A stretch of DNA of 64,000 nt from a virus: positions 16,926 to 80,925 of the IMG/VR virus record IMGVR_UViG_3300039074_000056, one strand, 5' to 3'. This document shows positions 8,980-59,465 of this stretch, piece after piece. The position numbers were made by a program, and so were the translations under genes. The notes beneath the pieces were generated by a model. It was not told the origin of the DNA. It saw only the letters and a list, made by a program, of their open reading frames with translations, and searched no databases. Each line of letters begins with the position of its first letter. Position 1 is the first letter of the stretch.

Positions 8980-9339
8980 ATGCAGGGCCGTCAAAAGGAC
9001 GGTGCTTCATTGCAGCAACACATGGAGAAGGCACAGGCTAGTCCCTTTGCCGCTCCCGCTTTAATTCAAGCGATTGAAGATGAAGCTGAGACAGCCCCCA
9101 TGCTTCCTGAAGCGGCTGCTTTTGTTTGGAGTTTCTTCTTGAAGCTTCATCAACAGCGTCCATCGGGAGGCATGGGGGTTTCTTGTTTGTCATTCACAGA
9201 TATAGATAGTTTCTGTCGTTTGACAAAGATGGAATTAGAAAGTTTTGAGCTAGATTTGATTCTGGCATTCGATAGATGTTTTTTGACAGTCTATTATGAA
9301 CAACAAGAGAAAGAGCAAAAAGCTCAAAACAAGAAATAA
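8980..9339 (+). CDS. Tail assembly chaperone, second part (gpT equivalent; probably made as a frameshift fusion)
   Basis: W.FFL.L...R..G.G...LSFTDI..F motif; no clear RBS of its own; lies in the -1 frame of the upstream gene. Confidence 0.75.
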   Translation: MQGRQKDGASLQQHMEKAQASPFAAPALIQAIEDEAETAPMLPEAAAFVWSFFLKLHQQRPSGGMGVSCLSFTDIDSFCRLTKMELESFELDLILAFDRCFLTVYYEQQEKEQKAQNKK

Positions 9340-9351
9340 TAAGAGGTGGGT

Positions 9352-10107
9352 ATGGTCGACATTGTAACTATTGGTTATAGGATTCAAACAGAAGGTCTCG
9401 CTCAAGCCAATAAGGAAATTGACGGTCTACTTAAAAAGAGTGATAAGTTAAATAATACTAAGGTTTCCCCAAAGACAGATTCCAAAGGTCTTGACGATGT
9501 TGCAAGAGCTTCTGCTAAGGCCACTAAAGAATTGTCTGTCCTGCAAAAACAGAAAGAGAACTTAGAGAAAGGCTTTAACAAGTCAACTAGCCTAGCTCTT
9601 GCCCGTATGCAAGTAGCTGGTGTTCCTCCTGCCACAATAGCAAGCTATGCTAATGCAAGAAAGCAAGTGGATGAACTTTCAAACAGCATGTCGCGACTTA
9701 GAGTATCCACTCAAGGTGGTTTAAGTTTAATCTCTGGTCTTGGTATTGGTCTTGGTACGGCGGTCTTTGGACAACTTGCCGTTGGTGTTGGTAAGTTAGC
9801 TGACAGCATGACGCTTCTTCAAGCCCGTATTAAGCTCGTCACACCAGTTACAGAAAACCTTAACGCTGTACAGCAAAGGTTGGTTGATACAGCCATTGCA
9901 ACAAGAACAGACCTCACCTCAACAATTACATTGTATAATCGACTTCAGCCAGCATTGTCTCGCTACGGTAAGACAACCTCGGAGGTACTGGATATTACAG
10001 AAGCATTTGGTAGAACACTTCTACTATCAGGTGCGAATACGCGAGAAGCAAGTGCTGCAATCCTACAGTTCTCTCAGGCTATGGGTAGCGGTAAACTTGC
10101 AGGTGAT
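9352..10107 (+). CDS. Tape measure protein, exon 1
   Basis: Tape-measure N-terminal domain (LLLSGA...AAILQFSQAMGSGKLAGD) cut in mid-motif; GAGG RBS before ATG 9352. Confidence 0.9.
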
Positions 10108-10360
10108 AGATAAATTTGTCACCCTACGGAGTAATTCGTAGCACAAACACTACCTAAAACGGGAAACTCCTTCAGGACAATCCGTTGCTAAATATAGAGC
10201 TAAAGCTCTATTAAATGCCCAACGACTAGCCGCAAGGCGTACACTCAAGTGAGTGGAAATGGTAGTCTCCCTTACGGGATGAAGATATAGTCTCATCTGC
10301 ATGGCAACATGCAGCAGCTTAATTGCGGCATAAGCCTAACGACCTTATGTGAAGATAAAG
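10108..10360 (+). ncRNA. Group I self-splicing intron (IA2-like), 253 nt, no internal ORF
   Basis: P1 GGUGAU/GUCACC with a U-G pair at the 5' splice site; P7 GACUA/UAGUC within AAGAUAUAGUC; P3, P4, P7.1, P7.2, P8 and P9 helices; terminal G at 10360; removal restores the frame. Confidence 0.93.
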
Positions 10361-13300
10361 GAATTTAGATCGGTAGCAGAAGCTGCACCAGCCTTGCTAG
10401 ATGCCTTAGCTAAAGGCGGTAATGTTGCTCGTGACTCACTAAAGAAAATGTCACAAGATGGTTTGTTGACAACAAAGTTCGTAGCTGATGCTTTGCAAAA
10501 GAGTATGCTTGATTTAATCGTTGCAACAGAAGGCATCCCAAAAACTGTTGGACAGGCATTTCAGAACTTGTCAACAGGCTTTCAATTTTTTATCGGGGAA
10601 CTGAATAAAACATACGGAATTACAGAAGGTCTTTCAGGTATTATCTCAGAACTAGCCTCTGGTATGGTTGGACTTGGTAAGTCACTTCAAGATGGCAAGT
10701 TTCAGGAAGTTACCAATAATCTGTTAATTATGACAGGTGTTATTGGTGGTGCTGCTACTGCATTTTACATTATGGATGCCGCTAACAAATCCGCTAATGT
10801 TAGTTTGTTAGAATATGTAAAGAACCTAAGAATTGCCACAGGCGCTCAAGCCTTGTTTAACATTGTTGCAGCAGCTAACCCTTATGTAATTCTAGCTGCA
10901 ACAATCATCGGTGTTGCAACAGCCCTCTACTCGATGCGTAATGCTACAGTGGAAGTTGGTGGCACTACTGTGAGCATTGGCTCGCTAATTGTTTCTACTT
11001 TTGAGTCTTTGAAAGAGCGTGTTGGAAGTGCCTTTATATTTATAACAGAATCTTACAAAAAGATTACCAAAGGACTGCAAGACGCTTTTGTTGGAATCTT
11101 TAATTTCCTTAAAGACACTATTGCAGGAAAGATTCTTGGTGCTTTGGTAGATGCTTTTACTAACACCCTGAAAGCTCTCGGACAAATTGGCATAAGATTC
11201 GCTAAGGCACTTGGTCTTGATAAGCTAACTGAGCAATTCAATGCTTTCGTATCTGATCTTGGGCAAGATATTGTCATTGGTGCAGTAGTAAGAGATAGCA
11301 AAGGCGCGAAGCCTGAAGCAGTTAATCCATTTTTGGGGGGTGGTGGCACAGCTACCGTAGTTGAAACCGAAGCCACTAAAAAGCTCCGCGAAGAAAGAGA
11401 ACGCCTTGCAGAACAGAACGCTGAGTTTCGCAAGAATTACTTAGCAGAAACTGCACTACTCCAAAGTGTTAATGATTTAATTGCACAGGGTTTGCCACTG
11501 AAAGAGGCTGAATTAGAAGCACAGAAGTTAGTTGACACTCAGAAGGCAATTTCTGCTGGACTAACTCAACTTCAAATTGACAAGCAATACGCTTTGCGTG
11601 ATGCTATTAAAGCAACTGCCGATGCTGAAAAAGCTCGCGAAGATCAAAAGAAATATCAAGATTCTGTTGATAAAGACTTTGCTAAAAACCAAGAAGCTTT
11701 TCTTAAACCAGAAGAGCTTAAAATTGGTGATTTGTTTGGTGATGCAAGCAAGGGTGCTGGCGCTTTAATCAATGCTTTTCAGGACATTAATAAACAGCAA
11801 GAGGCTTATAACGAACTTCTAGCTGACGCTGTTGTCAACAACAGAGATGTTACTGACATTGAAAAGCAAAGAGCTAAGAACGAACTCCGTAACATTGGCA
11901 ATATCCTCGGAGCTACTAAAGGATTCTTCAAAGAGAAGAGTGCTGGATACAAGGTATTGTCTGCTGCTGAAAAAGCCTACAAAGCTTTTGAGTTGGCATC
12001 TACAATCAAGAATTTTGCTATTGAGAAGGGACTGACGCTAGAAACTATTGGCATTAAGCTTTCTGGGTATGCCCAGACCGCTATTGCCGCTGTCTCAAGT
12101 GCAGGCACATCTATTGCGGCATTGCTTGGTATTGGCGCTACTGCCGGTGCTGTTGCTCCCGTAACAGCCGCTGCCGGAACACCCGGCCCTGCTGCGTTTG
12201 TTGCATTCGCTGCGATGGCTGCGCTTGTGGCTGCCGCCGGATTTGGCGGCTCAAAAACAAAAGGTTCTTTCGCGCCAACTAACGAAGGTACAGGTACAGT
12301 CTTTGGTGACAAGTCTGCTAAATCTGAAAGCATTAAACGCTCTATTGATTTGCTTGCTGAGAACTCTAAAATAGAGTTACCAATCACTTCTGCAATGCTG
12401 AGAAGCTTGCAGAATATTGAGTCTAATATTGGTGGTTTGACTAACCTTGTTATTCGTAAGGGGGCTGGCGAAGACCTAGCAAAAACCGTAAGCACAGGCT
12501 TCAAAGAAAGTGGACTAGGCAAGGGACTTCGCACCGCTGTAGGTATCGTAACTCTTGGAGCATCGGAGTTACTTGGTATTGGAAAGTTAATTGGTGGACT
12601 ATTTGGAACTAAAATTTCTATTAAAGGCCAAGGTCTCTTAGGTGAAGCGCAAAATCTATCCTCTATTACTTCGGAAGGTTTTAATCTTAGAGAATATGTA
12701 GATATAAACAAGAAGAAAAAATCTTTTGGTTTTACTACATCTAATAAGAACTCTACGAGAACCTCAGCAGCTTCCGATGAATTGGAAAGACAGTTTACCT
12801 TAATTTTTACTGGCTTTTACGATGCTATCAAACTGGCAGCCGTTCCCCTAGGTCAAAACCTAAATGATGTTACCTCTCGCCTAGACAACTTTGTTGTTAA
12901 GATCGGCAAGATTAACCTAAAAGGCTTAAAGGGTGAAGAAATCCAAGAGAAGTTAGAGGCTGTGTTTGGCGCTGCTGCTGATAGTATTGCACAAGCAGCT
13001 ATTCCGGGCTTAGAAGACTTCCAGAAAGTGGGTGAAGGGTATTTTGAAACTGTAGTTAGAGTATCTTCGGGCATTGAACAAGCAGCACAGGCTCTTGATT
13101 TGTTTGGTGTTACGGCAGTCAACTTCAAAGACATTATCTTAAAACAAGGTGATGTTGGAGCTGAAATTGTTAGACAATCCTTAGTTCTTGCCAACGGAGT
13201 TAGCGGAGTTTCTGAAATACTTAGCATTGCTTCAGTTGATAGTGTAGATGCTATTGTGGAGCTTGCTACTCAGTTGTACTCTCTTCGTGACAATGTTATT

Positions 13301-14260
13301 GCTATTGGCAATGGTTTTGCTGATGTAACTATTAGCTTGATTAAAGGAGCTGGTGGAGTAGATAGACTGCAAGATGGTCTTGATACTTTCTTTAACGATT
13401 TCCTTGATTCTCAAGAGCAAACAGCCGAGCTTACCCGTCGTACTACGCGAGAGTTTGCAAAACTTGGTTTGGCACTGCCTGCAAGCAAAGAAGCTTTTAA
13501 GACTCTTGTTCAAGGTATTGACACCACAACAAGCTCTGGTCAAGAGTTACTTGGCAGCGTACTTGCGTTGTCACCAGCTTTCCTTGAAATGAGTAGCGCA
13601 GCAGAAGACGCTGGCAGTAGCTTAACTGATGCCGCCAGAAGCCTTTACGAAACTATTAGAGATGCTAGGGTTGAGTCGTTAGTACCTACACAGCAACTAG
13701 ATGTATTGCTATCTGAGTACCAGAGCGCAGTGAATCTAGCAACACAATCAACAGGACAAAATCTTGCTGATAATGCTGGCGTGGTGAATAACTTAATCAA
13801 ACCGCTCCTTGATTCTATCAAGAGTGTGTTTGCTAGTGGCCCTGAAGCACAGCGTTTGATTGATAGCGTCCTTGGGCAAGCTAAGAATGTAGCTGATAAA
13901 GCTGCTAACGAAGCTTTCACTTATCAGGATGAGTCTCTGCGTCTGCTACAAGCTCAAGTCAACGAGCTAGAGGCTATTCGTTCGGCACTGAGCATTGGTG
14001 TGTTTACTCCTGTAAATCTTGGTACGGCAAGTAATGTTGTTCCTATTACAACAGGAAATACAGGTAGCTTAAATGTTAGTGTTCAGAGCACGACAGACAA
14101 TACAGCTATCATCACTGCTCTAACAGAAAGCAATGCTCACGCAGCAGCTCTTGTTAGATTGCAACAAGCAGCTAACCAACAAATCATTGCCAAACTTACA
14201 GAAATGGAAGAAAGGCTTGATGGTTTGGAGTCATCTGCAAGCTTGGCAGCATCTGCCTAA
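10361..14260 (+). CDS. Tape measure protein, exon 2 (spliced product about 1551 aa)
   Basis: EFRSVAEAAP continues the tape-measure motif; long Ala/Gly-rich helical protein with ANP motif. Confidence 0.9.
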   Translation, partial: EFRSVAEAAPALLDALAKGGNVARDSLKKMSQDGLLTTKFVADALQKSMLDLIVATEGIPKTVGQAFQNLSTGFQFFIGELNKTYGITEGLSGIISELASGMVGLGKSLQDGKFQEVTNNLLIMTGVIGGAATAFYIMDAANKSANVSLLEYVKNLRIATGAQALFNIVAAANPYVILAATIIGVATALYSMRNATVEVGGTTVSIGSLIVSTFESLKERVGSAFIFITESYKKITKGLQDAFVGIFNFLKDTIAGKILGALVDAFTNTLKALGQIGIRFAKALGLDKLTEQFNAFVSDLGQDIVIGAVVRDSKGAKPEAVNPFLGGGGTATVVETEATKKLREERERLAEQNAEFRKNYLAETALLQSVNDLIAQGLPLKEAELEAQKLVDTQKAISAGLTQLQIDKQYALRDAIKATADAEKAREDQKKYQDSVDKDFAKNQEAFLKPEELKIGDLFGDASKGAGALINAFQDINKQQEAYNELLADAVVNNRDVTDIEKQRAKNELRNIGNILGATKGFFKEKSAGYKVLSAAEKAYKAFELASTIKNFAIEKGLTLETIGIKLSGYAQTAIAAVSSAGTSIAALLGIGATAGAVAPVTAAAGTPGPAAFVAFAAMAALVAAAGFGGSKTKGSFAPTNEGTGTVFGDKSAKSESIKRSIDLLAENSKIELPITSAMLRSLQNIESNIGGLTNLVIRKGAGEDLAKTVSTGFKESGLGKGLRTAVGIVTLGASELLGIGKLIGGLFGTKISIKGQGLLGEAQNLSSITSEGFNLREYVDINKKKKSFGFTTSNKNSTRTSAASDELERQFTLIFTGFYDAIKLAAVPLGQNLNDVTSRLDNFVVKIGKINLKGLKGEEIQEKLEAVFGAAADSIAQAAIPGLEDFQKVGEGYFETVVRVSSGIEQAAQALDLFGVTAVNFKDIILKQGDVGAEIVRQSLVLANGVSGVSEILSIASVDSVDAIVELATQLYSLRDNVIAIGNGFADVTISLIKGAGGVDRLQDGLDTFFNDFLDSQEQTAELTRRTTREFAKLGLALPASKEAFKTLVQGIDTTTSSGQELLGSVLALSPAFLEMSSAAEDAGSSLTDAARSLYETIRDARVESLVPTQQLDVLLSEYQSAVNLATQSTGQNLADNAGVVNNLIKPLLDSIKSVFASGPEAQRLIDSVLGQAKNVADKAANEAFTYQDESLRLLQAQVNELEAIRSALSIGVFTPVNLGTASNVVPITTGNTGSLNVSVQSTTDNTAIITALTESNAHAAALVRLQQAANQQIIAKLTEMEERLDGLESSASLAASA

Positions 14261-45863: not shown

Positions 45864-45893
45864 TTGACACGGGGAAGGTAGGTGTAGTACAAT
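45864..45893 (+). promoter_or_regulatory. Rightward sigma70-like promoter
   Basis: TTGACA-18-TACAAT; back to back with the leftward promoter. Confidence 0.7.
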
Positions 45894-45899
45894 CGGCCT

Positions 45900-46240
45900 G
45901 TTTTCTGACTAGAAGGAAAACATGTAACCAAGGTTTTCTGCGTTGACGACTGTCGGCCTTGGTGATTGTGCCCGTAGGCAAGGGGAAGAAGATCACGGTA
46001 CGCCCCAAAGTGGTAAGCGAATTTATCAGCCACGAACCGTTAGTGACTCTTAAGTGAGGTAAATGATAAACTGTATCTGGCAACAGCCAGCCTAAGCCTC
46101 GTCTGAATTTACAGAGAGATTTATGGGGGACAGAGCTAGCCTGTGTTGAAGGGAATGGGGCAGTGTAGGAACTGCTCTTAAATACCTTCTCTATAGGGTT
46201 AGTATAAGCTCTGTTTCCTAGCCTGAACTGATTTACAGTA
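45900..46240 (+). ncRNA. Candidate structured ncRNA A (about 340 nt)
   Basis: Directly after a promoter; no credible ORF; multiple helices, some with G-U pairs. Confidence 0.55.
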
Positions 46241-46350
46241 GTATATAGATAAATATTAATATAAGATATAATTTAGATAAGATCAACAAACATGCAGTAA
46301 AAGAGCTAAACGAAAGAATAGCTTTGCTTAGGATTAGATGAAGAAGGGTG

Positions 46351-51889: not shown

Positions 51890-52483
51890 ATGAAAAAATG
51901 GATAAGCCCAATGACAATCCCAACTGGAAAGTCTAAGACTAAACGAGTTAGGCAATATGCCCTTTGGACTTCTATGGTAGATAGGGTAAAGGCACACAGG
52001 ACAAGTTGTGCGTCGTATGCCGGAACAAGTATATCTACTAATTTTATGGACTATGACTACTTTTACAAGTGGTGTGAGGAGCAAAAAGGATTTAACTCTA
52101 TTGATGAAAATGGTGATAAATACTGTTTGGATAAAGACATACTGTCCCAAGTTGAGAAACAATATAGTGAGTTAAATTGTGTATTTGTTCCATCAAAAAT
52201 TAACTCATTTTTTGTTAAGCAAAAATGCACAAAATATAATCTGCCGACTGGCGTTTCATACTCCCTTAGAGATAAATCTTATGTAGCATCTATAAGGGAC
52301 GCTGATGGAGTTAACTTAAGAATTTGTCAAGACAAATCTGTTGAATATTGCGCCGATGTTTACAAAATATTCAAGAGCATAATTGCAAATGAGCTTGCTA
52401 TGCGTTATTATGGCGATGTTGACGAAAGAGTTATAAAAGTTCTGCAAAACTATTTAGAATATTACGAAAGTAAGGAGAAATAA
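51890..52483 (+). CDS. HNH-like homing endonuclease (same family as 31529-32086)
   Basis: W..M..R...LDKDIL...YS...CVFVP..IN...LPTGV motif. Confidence 0.75.
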   Translation: MKKWISPMTIPTGKSKTKRVRQYALWTSMVDRVKAHRTSCASYAGTSISTNFMDYDYFYKWCEEQKGFNSIDENGDKYCLDKDILSQVEKQYSELNCVFVPSKINSFFVKQKCTKYNLPTGVSYSLRDKSYVASIRDADGVNLRICQDKSVEYCADVYKIFKSIIANELAMRYYGDVDERVIKVLQNYLEYYESKEK

Positions 52484-52893: not shown

Positions 52894-53114
52894 ACATGAG
52901 CCTACCACCAGCTTTAGAAAAAGAAGGTAATAAATATTTCTTGACAATGGAATGGACAGCTACGCATGTATTTGTTCGTTATCAAGCTTCCTATCACGAG
53001 GATGATGATTTACTTTCGATGTGGGATAAGCAAGATAAGATGGATAGTCTGCTTGAGAAAGTGGGAAAAGAAGTTAAGAATATGGTTGGTGAGGGTAAGG
53101 TGGTTGTAGTATGA
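52890..53114 (+). CDS. Hypothetical protein
   Basis: Coupled ORF. Confidence 0.5.
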   Translation: MNMSLPPALEKEGNKYFLTMEWTATHVFVRYQASYHEDDDLLSMWDKQDKMDSLLEKVGKEVKNMVGEGKVVVV

Positions 53115-53145
53115 TGTATTCATCAAGACAAAAGGGGAAAACAAA

Positions 53146-53715
53146 ATGTTTAAGATTGGTGATGTTGTGGTAAGAACAGGAAATATATGCAAGAGCTTTC
53201 CTGCTCGTTGCGTGCAAGGCGTTCCCGTAGTTGTATCAAACACCAATAATTTTGGTAGAAGTCTGTTCTTCTCTGAAGAGGATGGTGGTGATTGTGGTGG
53301 TACAGGCTGGGATAGTCGTTTCTTCTCTATCTATGAAAAGAAGCCTATCGACCTAAAGACAATGCCTTGGAAGATTCTTGTTAACTCGCCAGAAGAGTCT
53401 CGTATGGCACAGGAGTGGTTATTCTCTCAAGGTATTAAGTGGGTGGGTGGTAGTAATGTGGTAGATAATCGTGGCTCTCCGATTCTAACAAACTGCATGA
53501 AAGGAACCCTTACACCAGAGCCAAACTTTATGCACAGTTACAAAAATGACGACAGAGATTTAGCACCCACAATCAAGTTGACATTTGGTGTTACTGAGGT
53601 AGAATATCCAGAAATTCCTGCAAAGGAAACAGAAACACAGAAGAAGCTGAAAGAGCTTGAAGAACAACAGCGAAATATTGCTGAAGAGCTTGCAAAGCTT
53701 CGTGAGAGTATGTAA
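53146..53715 (+). CDS. Hypothetical protein (paralog of 56274-56834)
   Basis: FK.GDVVVR...DGGD...PW.IL; coiled-coil C-terminus. Confidence 0.65.
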   Translation: MFKIGDVVVRTGNICKSFPARCVQGVPVVVSNTNNFGRSLFFSEEDGGDCGGTGWDSRFFSIYEKKPIDLKTMPWKILVNSPEESRMAQEWLFSQGIKWVGGSNVVDNRGSPILTNCMKGTLTPEPNFMHSYKNDDRDLAPTIKLTFGVTEVEYPEIPAKETETQKKLKELEEQQRNIAEELAKLRESM

Positions 53716-54120
53716 GATAATGGCATTGAAATGTAAGCTTCCTGAAGAGCTAGTGAAATTCTGGCGAAACCCCTTGTGGGTCGGAGCAGCCAGTAAGCTA
53801 GGTGAAAGCTATTAGCGTAAATACTATCCTGTGAGAAAAGGCTTATACACAGGCGCTACGGCACGACATACCAACTTCCTATTGGTGTAGAATATGCCCC
53901 GTAAGGCAAGGACTTCCGCTCTGGCGAAGTAAAAGGCCAGAAACTACAAGAGTGTCCATTGGAAATAGTGGGAAGTCCGTCACTTCCACCCTTGACGGAA
54001 GGATAACAGTGGGCATTCTTGTGGTGCAAGGTTCAGGTTCCGCTGAGTGAGATAGAGTGATAAACACTCTTCAAAGAACTTTTCAGGTCGCTACTGATTA
54101 TGTCTCAGCCACCACAACTT
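53716..54120 (+). ncRNA. Candidate large structured ncRNA B (about 400 nt)
   Basis: Intergenic; 19-bp helix with G-U pairs; crossing long-range pairings; many hairpins. Confidence 0.65.
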
Positions 54121-54142
54121 TTAATAACAAAGGAGAAACAAA

Positions 54143-54454
54143 ATGCAAGAAGAAAACACAGTAACAGAAGCAGTAAAGCCATCCAAGCGCGAAGTTATCT
54201 TACTTCTAAAGCAAGAGATTGAAGCTCTTAAAGCTACTCTTGCGAAGCAAGTAGAAGAAACTAAGAAGTTTGAAGGCTACTATAAGATGTACCAAGACAA
54301 CGCCAGTAAAGCAGACGCTACAGTAGAAGAGATGCACTGCTTGCTTGATACGCTTCCGGGTGTTGTAGGTCGCAAGACCAGCGAAGATTACTACTCCAAG
54401 CCATACAGCCTTTCAGCTCGCTTCTGTAGCTGGCTTGCTACACGGATTAATTGA
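54143..54454 (+). CDS. Coiled-coil hypothetical protein
   Basis: AGGAG RBS. Confidence 0.6.
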   Translation: MQEENTVTEAVKPSKREVILLLKQEIEALKATLAKQVEETKKFEGYYKMYQDNASKADATVEEMHCLLDTLPGVVGRKTSEDYYSKPYSLSARFCSWLATRIN

Positions 54455-54464
54455 GGAGGTAAAT

Positions 54465-54683
54465 ATGACTCTTAACGAATACATTAGGGAACTCAATGAC
54501 CTTGCAGGACTTAACCCAGAAGTTGGCAATATGCCAGTTGTATATTCAAAGGACTCTGAAGGTAACGGCTTCTATGCTGTGGATAGTCTCCCATGTGTTA
54601 TGAAGTTTGAAAATGAAGGTTCTTATTGCCTTGAACCAGTTGAAGACGACGAAGATGGGTTTGAAGCTGTCTGTGTAAACTAA
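54465..54683 (+). CDS. Hypothetical protein
   Basis: V.S.D.EGN.F motif; GAGG RBS. Confidence 0.6.
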   Translation: MTLNEYIRELNDLAGLNPEVGNMPVVYSKDSEGNGFYAVDSLPCVMKFENEGSYCLEPVEDDEDGFEAVCVN

Positions 54684-54863
54684 GAACAAAGCCCTGAGTA
54701 TGGCTTATAACTGCTCATAATCTCCCATATCTGCTTCATAAATTCCTCTCTAAGAGCTTGAAATACAGCTCTTATGTCCTTGAAAACAAAGCATTTATTC
54801 CAAAATAAATTGCAGGCTTTTCGTTTCAAAATACAAAAAATCTAAAATAAATCGTTTTTCTTG

Positions 54864-56273: not shown

Positions 56274-56834
56274 ATGTCTAAATTTAAAGTTGGTGATGTC
56301 GTTGTTCGTGCTGAAGATTTTGACATTACAGGCATGTATGAGTGCTGTACTGGCAAGCCTGTAAAGATCATGGGAATTATTAGAGATCACCTTATCTTTT
56401 GTCCTAAGGATGGTGGCGATGGTTGGTGGGCTGCAAGCAATTTTGAGCTTTACAAGCCTCCTTTCAATCCCCTAGCCGACCCTTGGTACATCCTCACACC
56501 TACAAAAGAAGCATTTGAGGATGCTGTTGCTTGGGCTAAGAGTGTTGGTCTTGAAGATTTTACCTTTTGTATCTACACGGAAGGGGGTTACTATATTCGT
56601 AACTCTGAATACCTGAATATTCGAGCTGTGTCTGGCACTGAGCTTGACTTTAGACACGGCTCTTGCGACAACCACAAACAAATCACCCTCACAAAATCCA
56701 TCTCTTACGAATACAACATCGTAGAAGAGGAAACAGAGGAACAGAAAGAAGCTAAGAAGAAGGCAGAAGAGATCAATGCTGTTCGCATTGAAATGGAAGC
56801 ATTGGCTAAACGATTGAAAGATTTGGAGGGGTGA
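56274..56834 (+). CDS. Hypothetical protein (paralog of 53146-53715)
   Basis: FKVGDVVVR...DGGD...PWYIL; coiled-coil C-terminus. Confidence 0.65.
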   Translation: MSKFKVGDVVVRAEDFDITGMYECCTGKPVKIMGIIRDHLIFCPKDGGDGWWAASNFELYKPPFNPLADPWYILTPTKEAFEDAVAWAKSVGLEDFTFCIYTEGGYYIRNSEYLNIRAVSGTELDFRHGSCDNHKQITLTKSISYEYNIVEEETEEQKEAKKKAEEINAVRIEMEALAKRLKDLEG

Positions 56835-58972: not shown

Positions 58973-58980
58973 TATATTGC

Positions 58981-59202
58981 AAATGCAGATTCAAGGTGCA
59001 GATTGAGTTTAGTTAATAATGCAGACTGAATATGTATAAATGCAGATTGCAGATTTAACTTTTAGTAAATGCAGATAGCATTCCTGTATAATGCAGACTC
59101 GATTCCTTGATATCCAATTTTTGACAGCCATTACTTCCCGATTTTTGACAGCCTATATAATGCACTTGCATTAAAATACACTTGTATATATATATATATA
59201 TA
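58981..59202. repeat. Short direct-repeat array: 7x TGCAGA, 2x ATTTTTGACAGCC, then (TA)9
   Basis: TGCAGA at 58984, 58997, 59020, 59041, 59048, 59070 and 59092; 13-mer at 59117 and 59141; TA run at 59185-59202. Confidence 0.85.
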
Positions 59203-59465
59203 ACCCTAGTCTAATTATATCAAAATAAATTGATTTACAATTCTTTTGTAAAAACGCTTGCAAGCCTATCACCTATCGTGCTACTCGCGTGGGCGCGTGA
59301 TATAAAAGGCATCGCAAGCGATTGCACACGATTGCTCAAAAAATAAGCAAACGATCAAAAGACAAGAAAAAAGATTGAAAAATCGCTTGCAAAGCGTCTC
59401 GTGAGTCTTTAATGTTCGCTTTGTCGCTAGGCAATAACGCAAAGCGCAAAACGATAGGTGGCATC

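What the first reader, a model, noticed from the sequence alone, without database searches (positions are those of the whole stretch)
53716..54120. Candidate ~400-nt pseudoknotted non-coding RNA among the early genes
Seen in sequence: a 427-nt gap in an otherwise tightly packed operon, with no credible + strand ORF and dense pairing. ACUACAAGAGUGUCCAUUG (53943-61) pairs with CAGUGGGCAUUCUUGUGGU (54007-25) as a 19-bp helix with 4 G-U pairs, which points to RNA-level selection on the + strand. GGACUUCC (53910-17) pairs with GGAAGUCC (53971-78), crossing that helix as a pseudoknot. CCUGAAGAG (53741-49) pairs at long range with CUUUUCAGG (54079-87). Local stems include CUGGC/GCCAG (twice), CCUGUG/CACAGG, AUACCAA/UUGGUGU, CCGUCA/UGACGG, GCUGAG/CUCAGC and AGAGUG/CACUCU. 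CUUCC occurs four times. I cannot assign it to tRNA, tmRNA, RNase P or an intron. Inference: a large ornate phage RNA comparable in kind to GOLLD or ROOL, and possibly a new class.
Basis: partly seen in the sequence, partly recalled or inferred. Interest (0 to 1): 0.85.

Follow-up and report, generated by a model that had tools for sequence, protein, structure and literature searches.

The report
Structured RNA hairpin in phage early spacer
A 427-base non-coding spacer between two early genes of an uncultured 81-kb phage holds one long RNA hairpin that a related phage keeps through matching changes on both arms, but nothing yet shows that the whole spacer is a new large ornate RNA.

Summary
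Only one feature beats chance: the 19-bp helix 53943-61/54007-25. None of 200 shuffles reaches it, and it is the longest local helix on either strand of the 80.9-kb genome. Its 4 G-U pairs work only on the + (sense) strand. Contigs of a relative differ in the outer 11 bp at 10 positions, yet all 11 pairs hold: 4 double changes, 2 one-sided, none disruptive.

The 8-bp pseudoknot and the 9-bp long-range stem are no longer than shuffles give. Whole-gap folding energy is ordinary for this genome. Rfam gives nothing at E<=10. No homolog was found in 10 related phage records or by pattern scans.

Best reading (0.4): a cis-acting structured leader or processing hairpin on the early transcript, possibly started from a strong promoter-like site at 53578-53605. 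A free-standing large ncRNA remains possible (0.25). The GOLLD/ROOL analogy is untested beyond failed model matches. No expression data were available.

The parts
53578..53605 (+). Promoter-like site TTGACA-16-TAGAAT (11 of 12), inside the 3' end of the upstream 189-aa gene. A start near 53612 is inferred.
   Evidence: It is one of only three 11/12 sites on the + strand of the genome. The other two lie directly upstream of the two other ncRNA-like gaps. Function not shown.
53716..54142 (+). Non-coding spacer between the 189-aa gene (53146-53715) and the 103-aa gene (54143-54454). GC 0.454.
53720..53815 (+). Possible 31-codon ORF with a weak ribosome-binding site. Probably chance.
   Evidence: no family hit. 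An ORF this long is expected by chance in 427 nt (my estimate).
53910..53917 (+). 5' strand of the proposed pseudoknot (pairs with 53971-78).
   Evidence: Present. Its 8-bp length equals the shuffle mean. The relative has a different sequence here with a possible shifted 8-bp partner (by hand).
53916..53952 (+). Conserved island: small hairpin CUGGC/GCCAG (53921-25/53936-40) plus the inner part of the 5' arm.
   Evidence: record 7: 3 differences in 37 nt, with sequence under 80% alike on both sides. Pair probability of the small hairpin is 0.92.
53943..53961 (+). 5' arm of the 19-bp helix.
   Evidence: pair probabilities 0.93-1.0.
53962..54006 (+). 45-nt apical domain with mutually exclusive small pairings; includes the 3' strand of the proposed pseudoknot (53971-78). 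Replaced by a longer, unlike sequence in the relative.
54007..54025 (+). 3' arm of the 19-bp helix.
   Evidence: In the relative the outer 11 bp change on both arms yet stay paired.
54018..54142 (+). 3' part of the spacer, near-identical in relatives. Contains the AGAGUG/CACUCU hairpin (54054-70) and the AAGGAG ribosome-binding site (54130-35).
   Evidence: record 8: 2 differences in 125 nt (54068 T>C, 54125 T>C). The adjoining 209 nt of coding sequence is just as conserved (5 differences). 54068 T>C puts an A-C mismatch in the small hairpin.

Best explanation
The spacer carries a genuine sense-strand RNA structure. Its one firmly supported element is a 19-bp hairpin (53943-54025) with a variable tip. 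I read it as a cis-acting structured leader or processing element of the early polycistronic message, not a free-standing ribozyme-like RNA.

Proposed mechanism:
1. The region is transcribed by read-through from the upstream early genes, perhaps also from the strong sigma-70-like site at 53578-53605.
2. The roughly two-turn double-stranded helix serves as an entry site for a double-strand-specific RNase (RNase III type), or as a barrier to exonucleases.
3. This uncouples the stability and translation of the 189-aa message from those of the 103-aa gene and the genes after it.
4. Only the helical shape is needed, so the outer helix and its tip can change freely as long as the arms stay paired.

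Shown: it is non-coding; the helix is non-random; it is strand-specific; it is kept by compensatory changes in one relative.
Inferred: transcription, the promoter, cleavage or protection, and any effect on the downstream gene.
For: - Helix statistics: 0 of 200 shuffles reach 19 bp. It is the longest local helix in 80.9 kb on either strand. Pair probabilities are 0.93-1.0.
- Strand: 4 of 19 pairs are G-U, which are A-C mismatches on the other strand, and the - strand list has no helix of 13 bp or more here. The + strand is the sense strand of this gene block.
- Relative (records 7 and 8 of run X4, depths 4.3 and 4.9): similarity stops at 53952 and resumes at 54018, bases that face each other in the helix. 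Read by hand, the printed loose ends pair with each other over 11 bp: 5 pairs unchanged, 2 changed on one side (G-U to G-C, U-G to U-A), 4 changed on both sides (U-A to A-U, C-G to G-U, C-G to U-A, A-U to U-A), none broken, plus one bulged base.
- Cis context: there is no terminator-like site in 53000-54700 on the + strand. The spacer runs straight into the ribosome-binding site of the 103-aa gene. The promoter-like site is at 53578.
- No known RNA family: Rfam finds nothing real at E<=10.
Against: - No RNA data: no RNA run was listed, so transcription and processing are untested.
- 427 nt is far longer than a processing hairpin needs, and the other ~340 nt are unexplained.
- Other intergenic regions of this early block do not carry comparable hairpins. 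In one search the other + strand helices of 15 bp or more lie elsewhere: several inside ORFs, one beside the copy A element. So this is not a repeated T7-style set of sites.
- The covariation rests on one relative and on two short contigs that I assume come from one molecule.
- The sharp identity breaks could reflect recombination that swapped a module, not gradual co-evolution.
- A variable stem closed by a conserved helix base is also what a peripheral stem of a larger structured RNA looks like.
- The host and its RNases are unknown.
Confidence: 0.4

Rival explanations
1. A free-standing large non-coding RNA of about 430-530 nt. It would be transcribed from the promoter-like site at 53578-53605, fold into a multi-stem, possibly pseudoknotted structure, and act in trans on a host factor or by self-assembly.
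For: - The three best + strand promoter matches in the genome (11 of 12) each sit just upstream of one of the three ncRNA-like gaps.
- The stretch 53612-54142 folds with z -3.19, with 0 of 100 shuffles as stable.
- GC is 0.454 against about 0.39 around it.
- The relative keeps a helix base with a variable, longer tip, as peripheral stems of large RNAs do.
- A possible shifted 8-bp pseudoknot partner exists in the relative (by hand).
- It has no Rfam family, so it would be new.
Against: - No terminator or 3' end lies before the next gene.
- Only 1 of about 12 proposed helices beats chance.
- Whole-gap energy is ordinary for this genome: 7 of 20 random windows reach z <= -2.0, and the GC-regression residual is -0.96 SD.
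- 54068 T>C in the relative breaks the AGAGUG/CACUCU hairpin.
- The 5' side is under 80% alike in the relative: about 109 nt before 53916 did not align, and the first ~90 nt of the gap were not covered at all.
- The CM of the core found nothing real in 10 related phage records, and there is no paralog in the genome.
Confidence: 0.25
2. A largely functionless spacer, such as the decayed remnant of a gene or a junction between mosaic modules. The hairpin would be a leftover inverted repeat with little or no present role.
For: - The relative is mosaic around this place. It is about 98% identical over 54018-54351, about 21% different over 54352-54452, and under 80% alike before 53916 and in 53953-54017.
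- On what looks like the same 1834-nt contig, the upstream protein of a relative is only 54% identical while the downstream protein is 89% identical (co-location inferred from equal contig lengths).
- An HNH endonuclease gene lies 1.2 kb upstream.
- Whole-gap folding is not exceptional.
Against: - Ten substitutions in the outer helix all keep pairing, which neutral decay would not do.
- All mismatches are G-U on the sense strand, in both the window and the relative.
- No frame of the gap resembles any protein family.
- The gap is kept in an otherwise tightly packed gene block.
Confidence: 0.2
3. A DNA-level element, such as a hairpin or cruciform site for replication, recombination or protein binding, with no RNA role.
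For: A long inverted repeat in a spacer is also typical of DNA sites. The identity breakpoints in the relative coincide with the repeat.
Against: - Four of 19 positions are G-T/A-C mismatches in duplex DNA and are G-U only on the sense strand.
- There are no iterons and no AT-rich tract; GC is above the local mean.
- A separate repeat array at 58975-59410 is a better origin candidate.
Confidence: 0.07
4. One or two unrecognised very small protein genes fill part of the gap: 53720-53815 (31 codons) and/or 54057-54164 (35 codons, GTG start).
For: Both frames are open. The only two substitutions seen in 54018-54142 (54068, 54125) are synonymous third positions in the 54057 frame (my reading).
Against: - The ribosome-binding sites are weak compared with the AAGGAG-type sites of neighbouring genes.
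- ORFs of this length are expected by chance.
- There are no family hits.
- Two substitutions prove nothing, and conservation also covers 54018-54056, outside that frame.
Confidence: 0.08

Closest known systems
RNase III processing hairpins between early genes of phage T7, and the lambda N-leader site (recalled textbook knowledge; no paper read here)
   Same: An intergenic position on a polycistronic early transcript. About two turns of double-stranded RNA. Shape, not sequence, would be the constraint, which fits the compensatory changes seen.
   Different: Those sites are about 60 nt hairpins, usually with an internal loop, and recur at several gene junctions. Here there is one perfect 19-bp helix with a 45-nt tip inside a 427-nt spacer, and no comparable hairpin at other junctions of this block. 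Cleavage is untested and the host is unknown.
GOLLD and ROOL large ornate phage RNAs (passages of PMC12286853 read)
   Same: Phage-encoded, non-coding, and of unknown function. [quoted passage not shown]
   Different: No match to any Rfam model at E<=10. The spacer is 427 nt, against many GOLLD members above 800 nt. There are no tRNA genes nearby, whereas both are described as often near tRNA islands. There is no covariation-supported multi-stem architecture.
Group I intron core (P3/P7 pseudoknot topology)
   Same: The order of strands A, hairpin, B, A', hairpin, B' matches P3, P4-P6, P7, P3', P8, P7' (my comparison from recalled topology). The same phage carries a real group I intron at 10098-10314.
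   Different: The Rfam group I model scores 76 bits on the real intron but gives nothing here even at E<=10. The 'P7' would be 19 bp. The element lies between two complete genes, not inside one.
Candidate cis-regulatory structured RNAs upstream of phage genes from the IMG/VR-scale survey (PMC10690425; abstract and outline read)
   Same: A structured, unclassified RNA just upstream of a phage gene in an IMG/VR record.
   Different: I could not check whether this element is among the 10,006 candidates, because supplements are closed.

Membership tests
GOLLD / ROOL (Rfam families) | Match to the family's covariance model | tested here: not met
   cmscan at gathering thresholds on the window and at E<=10 on 53600-54250 found no such hit. 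The three hits listed are chance-level, with E 2.4-9.1.
GOLLD / ROOL (Rfam families) | Large size and frequent location near tRNA islands (usual, not strictly defining; PMC12286853 passages) | tested here: not met
   The spacer is 427 nt. ARAGORN finds 0 tRNA genes in 64 kb.
Group I intron | Match to Rfam Intron_gpI | tested here: not met
   The model finds the intron at 10098-10314 at 76 bits but nothing in 53600-54250 at E<=10.
Group I intron | Interrupts a gene whose two exons join into one frame | tested here: not met
   All 9 members of the 189-aa family, window copy included, end at the same ...LRE[S/T]M residue. The 103-aa family starts at its own Met behind an AAGGAG site.
tRNA / tmRNA | Cloverleaf, or tRNA-like domain with a tag reading frame | tested here: not met
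   ARAGORN finds 0 genes.
Intrinsic terminator | GC-rich hairpin followed by a run of U | tested here: not met
   There is no + strand terminator-like site in 53000-54700. The helix is followed by GCAAGGUUCAGG.
RNase III-type processing hairpin | About 20 bp of sense-strand double-stranded RNA between cistrons of one transcript | tested here: met
   19 uninterrupted pairs at 53943-61/54007-25 between two same-strand genes. A single transcript is inferred, not shown.
RNase III-type processing hairpin | Cleavage by RNase III | not testable with these tools
   This needs an enzyme assay or RNA end mapping. No RNA run was available.
Structured RNA supported by covariation (general criterion) | Compensatory changes in several helices across several independent relatives | tested here: inconclusive
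   One helix in one relative: 4 double and 2 one-sided changes, 0 disruptive (by hand). Other helices are unseen, and one (54054-70) gains a mismatch. Contigs of further relatives could not be fetched.

The most novel reading that the evidence does not exclude
The spacer encodes a lineage-specific large RNA of about 430-530 nt from its own strong early promoter. It would have a pseudoknotted core whose long stem carries a fast-changing, helix-closed module that sets specificity for self-assembly or for a target. Together with the two other ncRNA-like elements that follow the other two strongest promoters of this phage, it would make a set of abundant early phage RNAs of a class not yet described.
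Probability: 0.12. Interest if true: 0.75.

Novelty: new member of a known kind. Interest (0 to 1): 0.35.

Why it matters
Structured RNAs of virulent phages are poorly charted, and most candidates from uncultured phages rest on folding predictions alone. This case shows which part of such a prediction survives controls: one long sense-strand hairpin, kept by compensatory change. The rest, namely the pseudoknot, the long-range stem and the overall fold energy, does not survive them.

If the hairpin is a processing or stability signal, it marks how this freshwater phage lineage divides its early transcript. Its closest cultured relatives by DNA polymerase are Limnohabitans and Curvibacter phages at 54-57% identity.

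If the bolder reading holds, this phage would carry three abundant early RNAs of unknown class, which would be worth an experiment. On present evidence it is a modest, lineage-restricted finding.

Tried and rejected
- Known RNA families: Rfam at gathering thresholds and at E<=10 gave nothing real. ARAGORN found nothing.
- Hidden coding:
  - Six-frame translation showed stops in every frame.
  - The 62-aa minus-strand ORF shares no words with any of 5.8 billion proteins, not even a called copy of itself.
  - The 57-aa minus ORF hit only 3 long repetitive proteins, through many short stretches.
  - Pfam and PHROGs on the open stretches gave only one PHROG hit, at E 0.14.
- Paralogs in the genome: blastn with word size 7, nhmmer --max and CM R1 found only the element itself. 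The motif shared with the element at 45969 is 15 of 17 letters with 2 gaps, too short to count.
- Homologs elsewhere:
  - blastn against 50,697 phage records found none.
  - tblastn of the flanking proteins found only 4 distant Pseudomonas phage records for the 189-aa protein and none for the 103-aa protein.
  - IMG/VR protein scans gave three distant relatives (32-34% identity) with no similar spacer.
  - The one metagenome scan gave a close relative, L009, whose contig starts 1.35 kb downstream of the element.
  - Exact-pattern scans returned seed-only chance matches: 2 viral and 24 genome loci, 0 and 6.
- CM R1 (53916-54090) against 10 related or fetched records gave best E-values of 0.09 and 0.59. 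I inspected only the E 0.09 match, which lies among small ORFs. I judge both spurious: 13.1 and 9.9 bits, against 229.7 for the element itself.
- Expression: no RNA holder was listed, so nothing can be said about expression.
- Conservation of the 3' part: I first read 2 differences in 125 nt as stronger conservation than the coding sequence. I rejected that, because the adjoining 209 coding bases have only 5 differences and the gene's divergence is packed into 54352-54452.
- CsrA-type sponge: 7 GGA motifs is about the chance expectation (hand count). Rejected.
- Integron attC, retron, DGR, omega-RNA and bridge RNA: there is no partner gene nearby. Not pursued.
- Literature: the PAK_P3 transcriptome paper (PMC4933390, passages read) describes ~100-nt late sRNAs near tRNAs, which are not comparable. 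Two full-text searches turned up no description of an element like this. Supplements of PMC10690425 may list it, but they are closed.

Full report
CONTEXT
- The window is bases 16926-80925 of an 80,925-bp IMG/VR virus record with direct terminal repeats.
- It encodes a tail tube protein and a tape-measure gene split by a group I intron. It also encodes ribonucleotide reductase, a primase-helicase and a family B DNA polymerase.
- The polymerase is 54-60% identical to those of a Manatee Spring virus, Limnohabitans phage DC31 and Curvibacter phage P26059A. This is therefore an uncultured relative of freshwater proteobacterial phages.
- From about 46.4 kb to the end of the window, small genes run on the + strand.

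THE OBSERVATION
The gap is real. The 189-aa ORF stops at 53715, and the next gene starts at 54143 behind AAGGAG.

It is non-coding:
- All six frames are broken by all three stop codons.
- None of the open stretches resembles a protein family.
- A 31-codon ORF at 53720-53815 with a weak ribosome-binding site is the only loose end.

WHAT BEATS CHANCE
- The 19-bp helix 53943-61/54007-25 does. In 200 dinucleotide-preserving shuffles the longest Watson-Crick/G-U helix averaged 10.9 and never passed 15. Across the whole genome, on both strands and for spans up to 200, it is the longest uninterrupted helix; the next are 18, 18 and 16.
- The 8-bp pseudoknot helix does not. It equals the shuffle mean for Watson-Crick helices (7.96), and 139 of 200 shuffles have 8 or more.
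- The 9-bp long-range stem is shorter than the shuffle mean.
- Whole-gap folding energy looks good against shuffles: z -2.61, with 1 of 100 shuffles as stable; the minus strand gives z -1.67. But it is not special for this genome. 7 of 20 random windows reach z <= -2.0 against -2.11 for the gap under the same procedure. After regression on GC over 537 windows, the gap is 0.96 SD below the line (my arithmetic). Among the 10 random windows from the early block, only 1 reached -2.0.

STRAND
Four of the 19 pairs are G-U, which is possible only in + strand RNA. The minus-strand scan has no helix of 13 bp or more here. The + strand is the sense strand of the block.

RELATIVES
- Cultured phages and IMG/VR hold no close relative.
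- The large protein collection holds 4 homologs of the 103-aa protein (61-89% identity) and 8 of the 189-aa protein (48-63%). All but one come from Logan assemblies.
- One study of viral metagenomes holds the window (run X1, probably its source) and relatives in three further runs.

I laid their contigs at 80% likeness or more:
- Record 8 of X4 (509 nt) matches 54018-54452. Differences are 2 in the last 125 nt of the gap, 5 in the next 209 coding bases, and 21 plus two indels in 54352-54452.
- Record 7 of X4 (275 nt) matches only 53916-53952 (3 differences). About 109 and 129 unlike bases lie on its two sides.
- So the relative is mosaic here. The near-identity of the gap's 3' part is no greater than that of the adjoining coding sequence.

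THE COVARIATION
- Similarity is lost after 53952 and regained at 54018. These positions face each other in the helix: 53952 pairs with 54016, and 53950 with 54018.
- The 30-letter loose ends printed for the two records, read by hand, are complementary to each other in exact continuation of the conserved inner 8 pairs.
- Of the outer 11 pairs, 5 are unchanged, 2 change on one side and stay paired, 4 change on both sides and stay paired, and none is broken. One base is bulged on the 3' arm.
- Three pairs in the relative are again G-U on the sense strand.
- I estimate the chance of this at below 0.01, given the changes on one arm.
- It assumes the two contigs come from one molecule. They have similar depth, 4.3 and 4.9, and are in the same run.
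- The relative's tip is longer, about 100 nt against 45.
- The relative's sequence in place of GGACUUCC differs. It could pair over 8 bp, 2 of them G-U, with a stretch just after its 5' arm, shifted by a few bases. Found post hoc in two 30-letter strings, that is only suggestive (0.05-0.2).
- 54068 T>C in the relative puts an A-C mismatch into the AGAGUG/CACUCU hairpin.

TRANSCRIPTION SIGNALS
- A TTGACA-16-TAGAAT site (11 of 12) lies at 53578-53605, inside the end of the upstream gene.
- Only three sites this good exist on the + strand of the genome. The other two sit directly upstream of two other ncRNA-like gaps noted by earlier readers (genome 10140; window 45864).
- No terminator-like site follows the element. 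Whatever is transcribed here runs into the 103-aa gene.

SEARCH FOR A FAMILY
- Rfam gives nothing at E<=10.
- A covariance model of 53916-54090 found only the element itself in its own genome. In 10 other records it gave two matches, at E 0.09 and 0.59. I inspected only the first and judge both spurious from their scores.
- Pattern scans gave chance seeds only.

INTERPRETATION
What is shown is a sense-strand RNA hairpin of about two helical turns, conserved in shape and free in sequence, inside a kept non-coding spacer with no terminator.
- The reading that needs the fewest extra assumptions is a cis-acting structured leader or processing/stability element of the early message, of the RNase III-site kind (confidence 0.4).
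- A free-standing large RNA stays a live rival (0.25). In its favour are the promoter pattern, the raised GC and the 'conserved base, variable tip' look of the stem.
- Other rivals are a mostly functionless mosaic junction (0.2), a DNA-level site (0.07) and hidden micro-genes (0.08).
- The GOLLD/ROOL comparison is an analogy only. The model matches fail, the size and tRNA context differ, and no multi-helix covariation exists yet.

VERDICT
This is a real but modest structured-RNA element, unclassified and so far restricted to one phage lineage. The scan's earlier notes on this genome concern other elements, and no look-alike was noted on other DNA.

Noticed in passing
window 10098-10314: A group I intron (Rfam 76 bits) splits the tape-measure gene. 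The Pfam TMP_3 match runs to profile position 109 in ORF 9346-10113 and resumes at 108 in ORF 10349-14260.
   Followed up: partly
window 45864-46290, and genome 10140-10485 (before the window): Two paralogous ~300-nt non-coding elements, each directly behind an 11/12 sigma-70-like promoter. They share blocks such as a CUGGCA-N-CAGCCAG hairpin and CUCUUAAAUACC. Rfam gave no real hit at E<=10 for the window copy, and model R1 did not detect them.
   Followed up: partly
window 45864, 46351, 50888, 53578, 54864, 58227: Promoter-like sites on the + strand of the early block often carry an extended GTTGTTGACA or similar upstream half. This suggests many separate early promoters.
   Followed up: no
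window 9093-9180: An 18-bp uninterrupted + strand helix inside ORF 8980-9339, just upstream of the tape-measure gene. It is the second longest in the genome and sits where tail-chaperone frameshift signals usually lie (recalled).
   Followed up: no
window 53146-53715 and 56274-56834; L009 835-1404, 3570-4151, 4148-4720: A family of 186-193-aa early proteins starting MxKFKxGD and ending in a charged coiled coil occurs in several copies per genome. Pfam gives no hit for the one copy scanned (53146-53715); PHROG hits for it are weak.
   Followed up: partly
window 54352-54452: The 103-aa gene is about 2% diverged from a relative over its first two thirds and about 21% diverged, with two indels, in this stretch. 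It is a local mosaic or hypervariable patch matching the variable SEDYYSKP segment of the protein alignment.
   Followed up: no
window 51890-52483: A free-standing HNH endonuclease gene (PHROG 953, E 8e-39) lies among the small early genes, 1.2 kb upstream of the spacer.
   Followed up: no
L036 (Limnohabitans phage DC31) 19819-20751 and 16848-17667: The related cultured phage has unannotated gaps of 932 and 819 nt among its small early genes. Rfam found only its five tRNAs.
   Followed up: no
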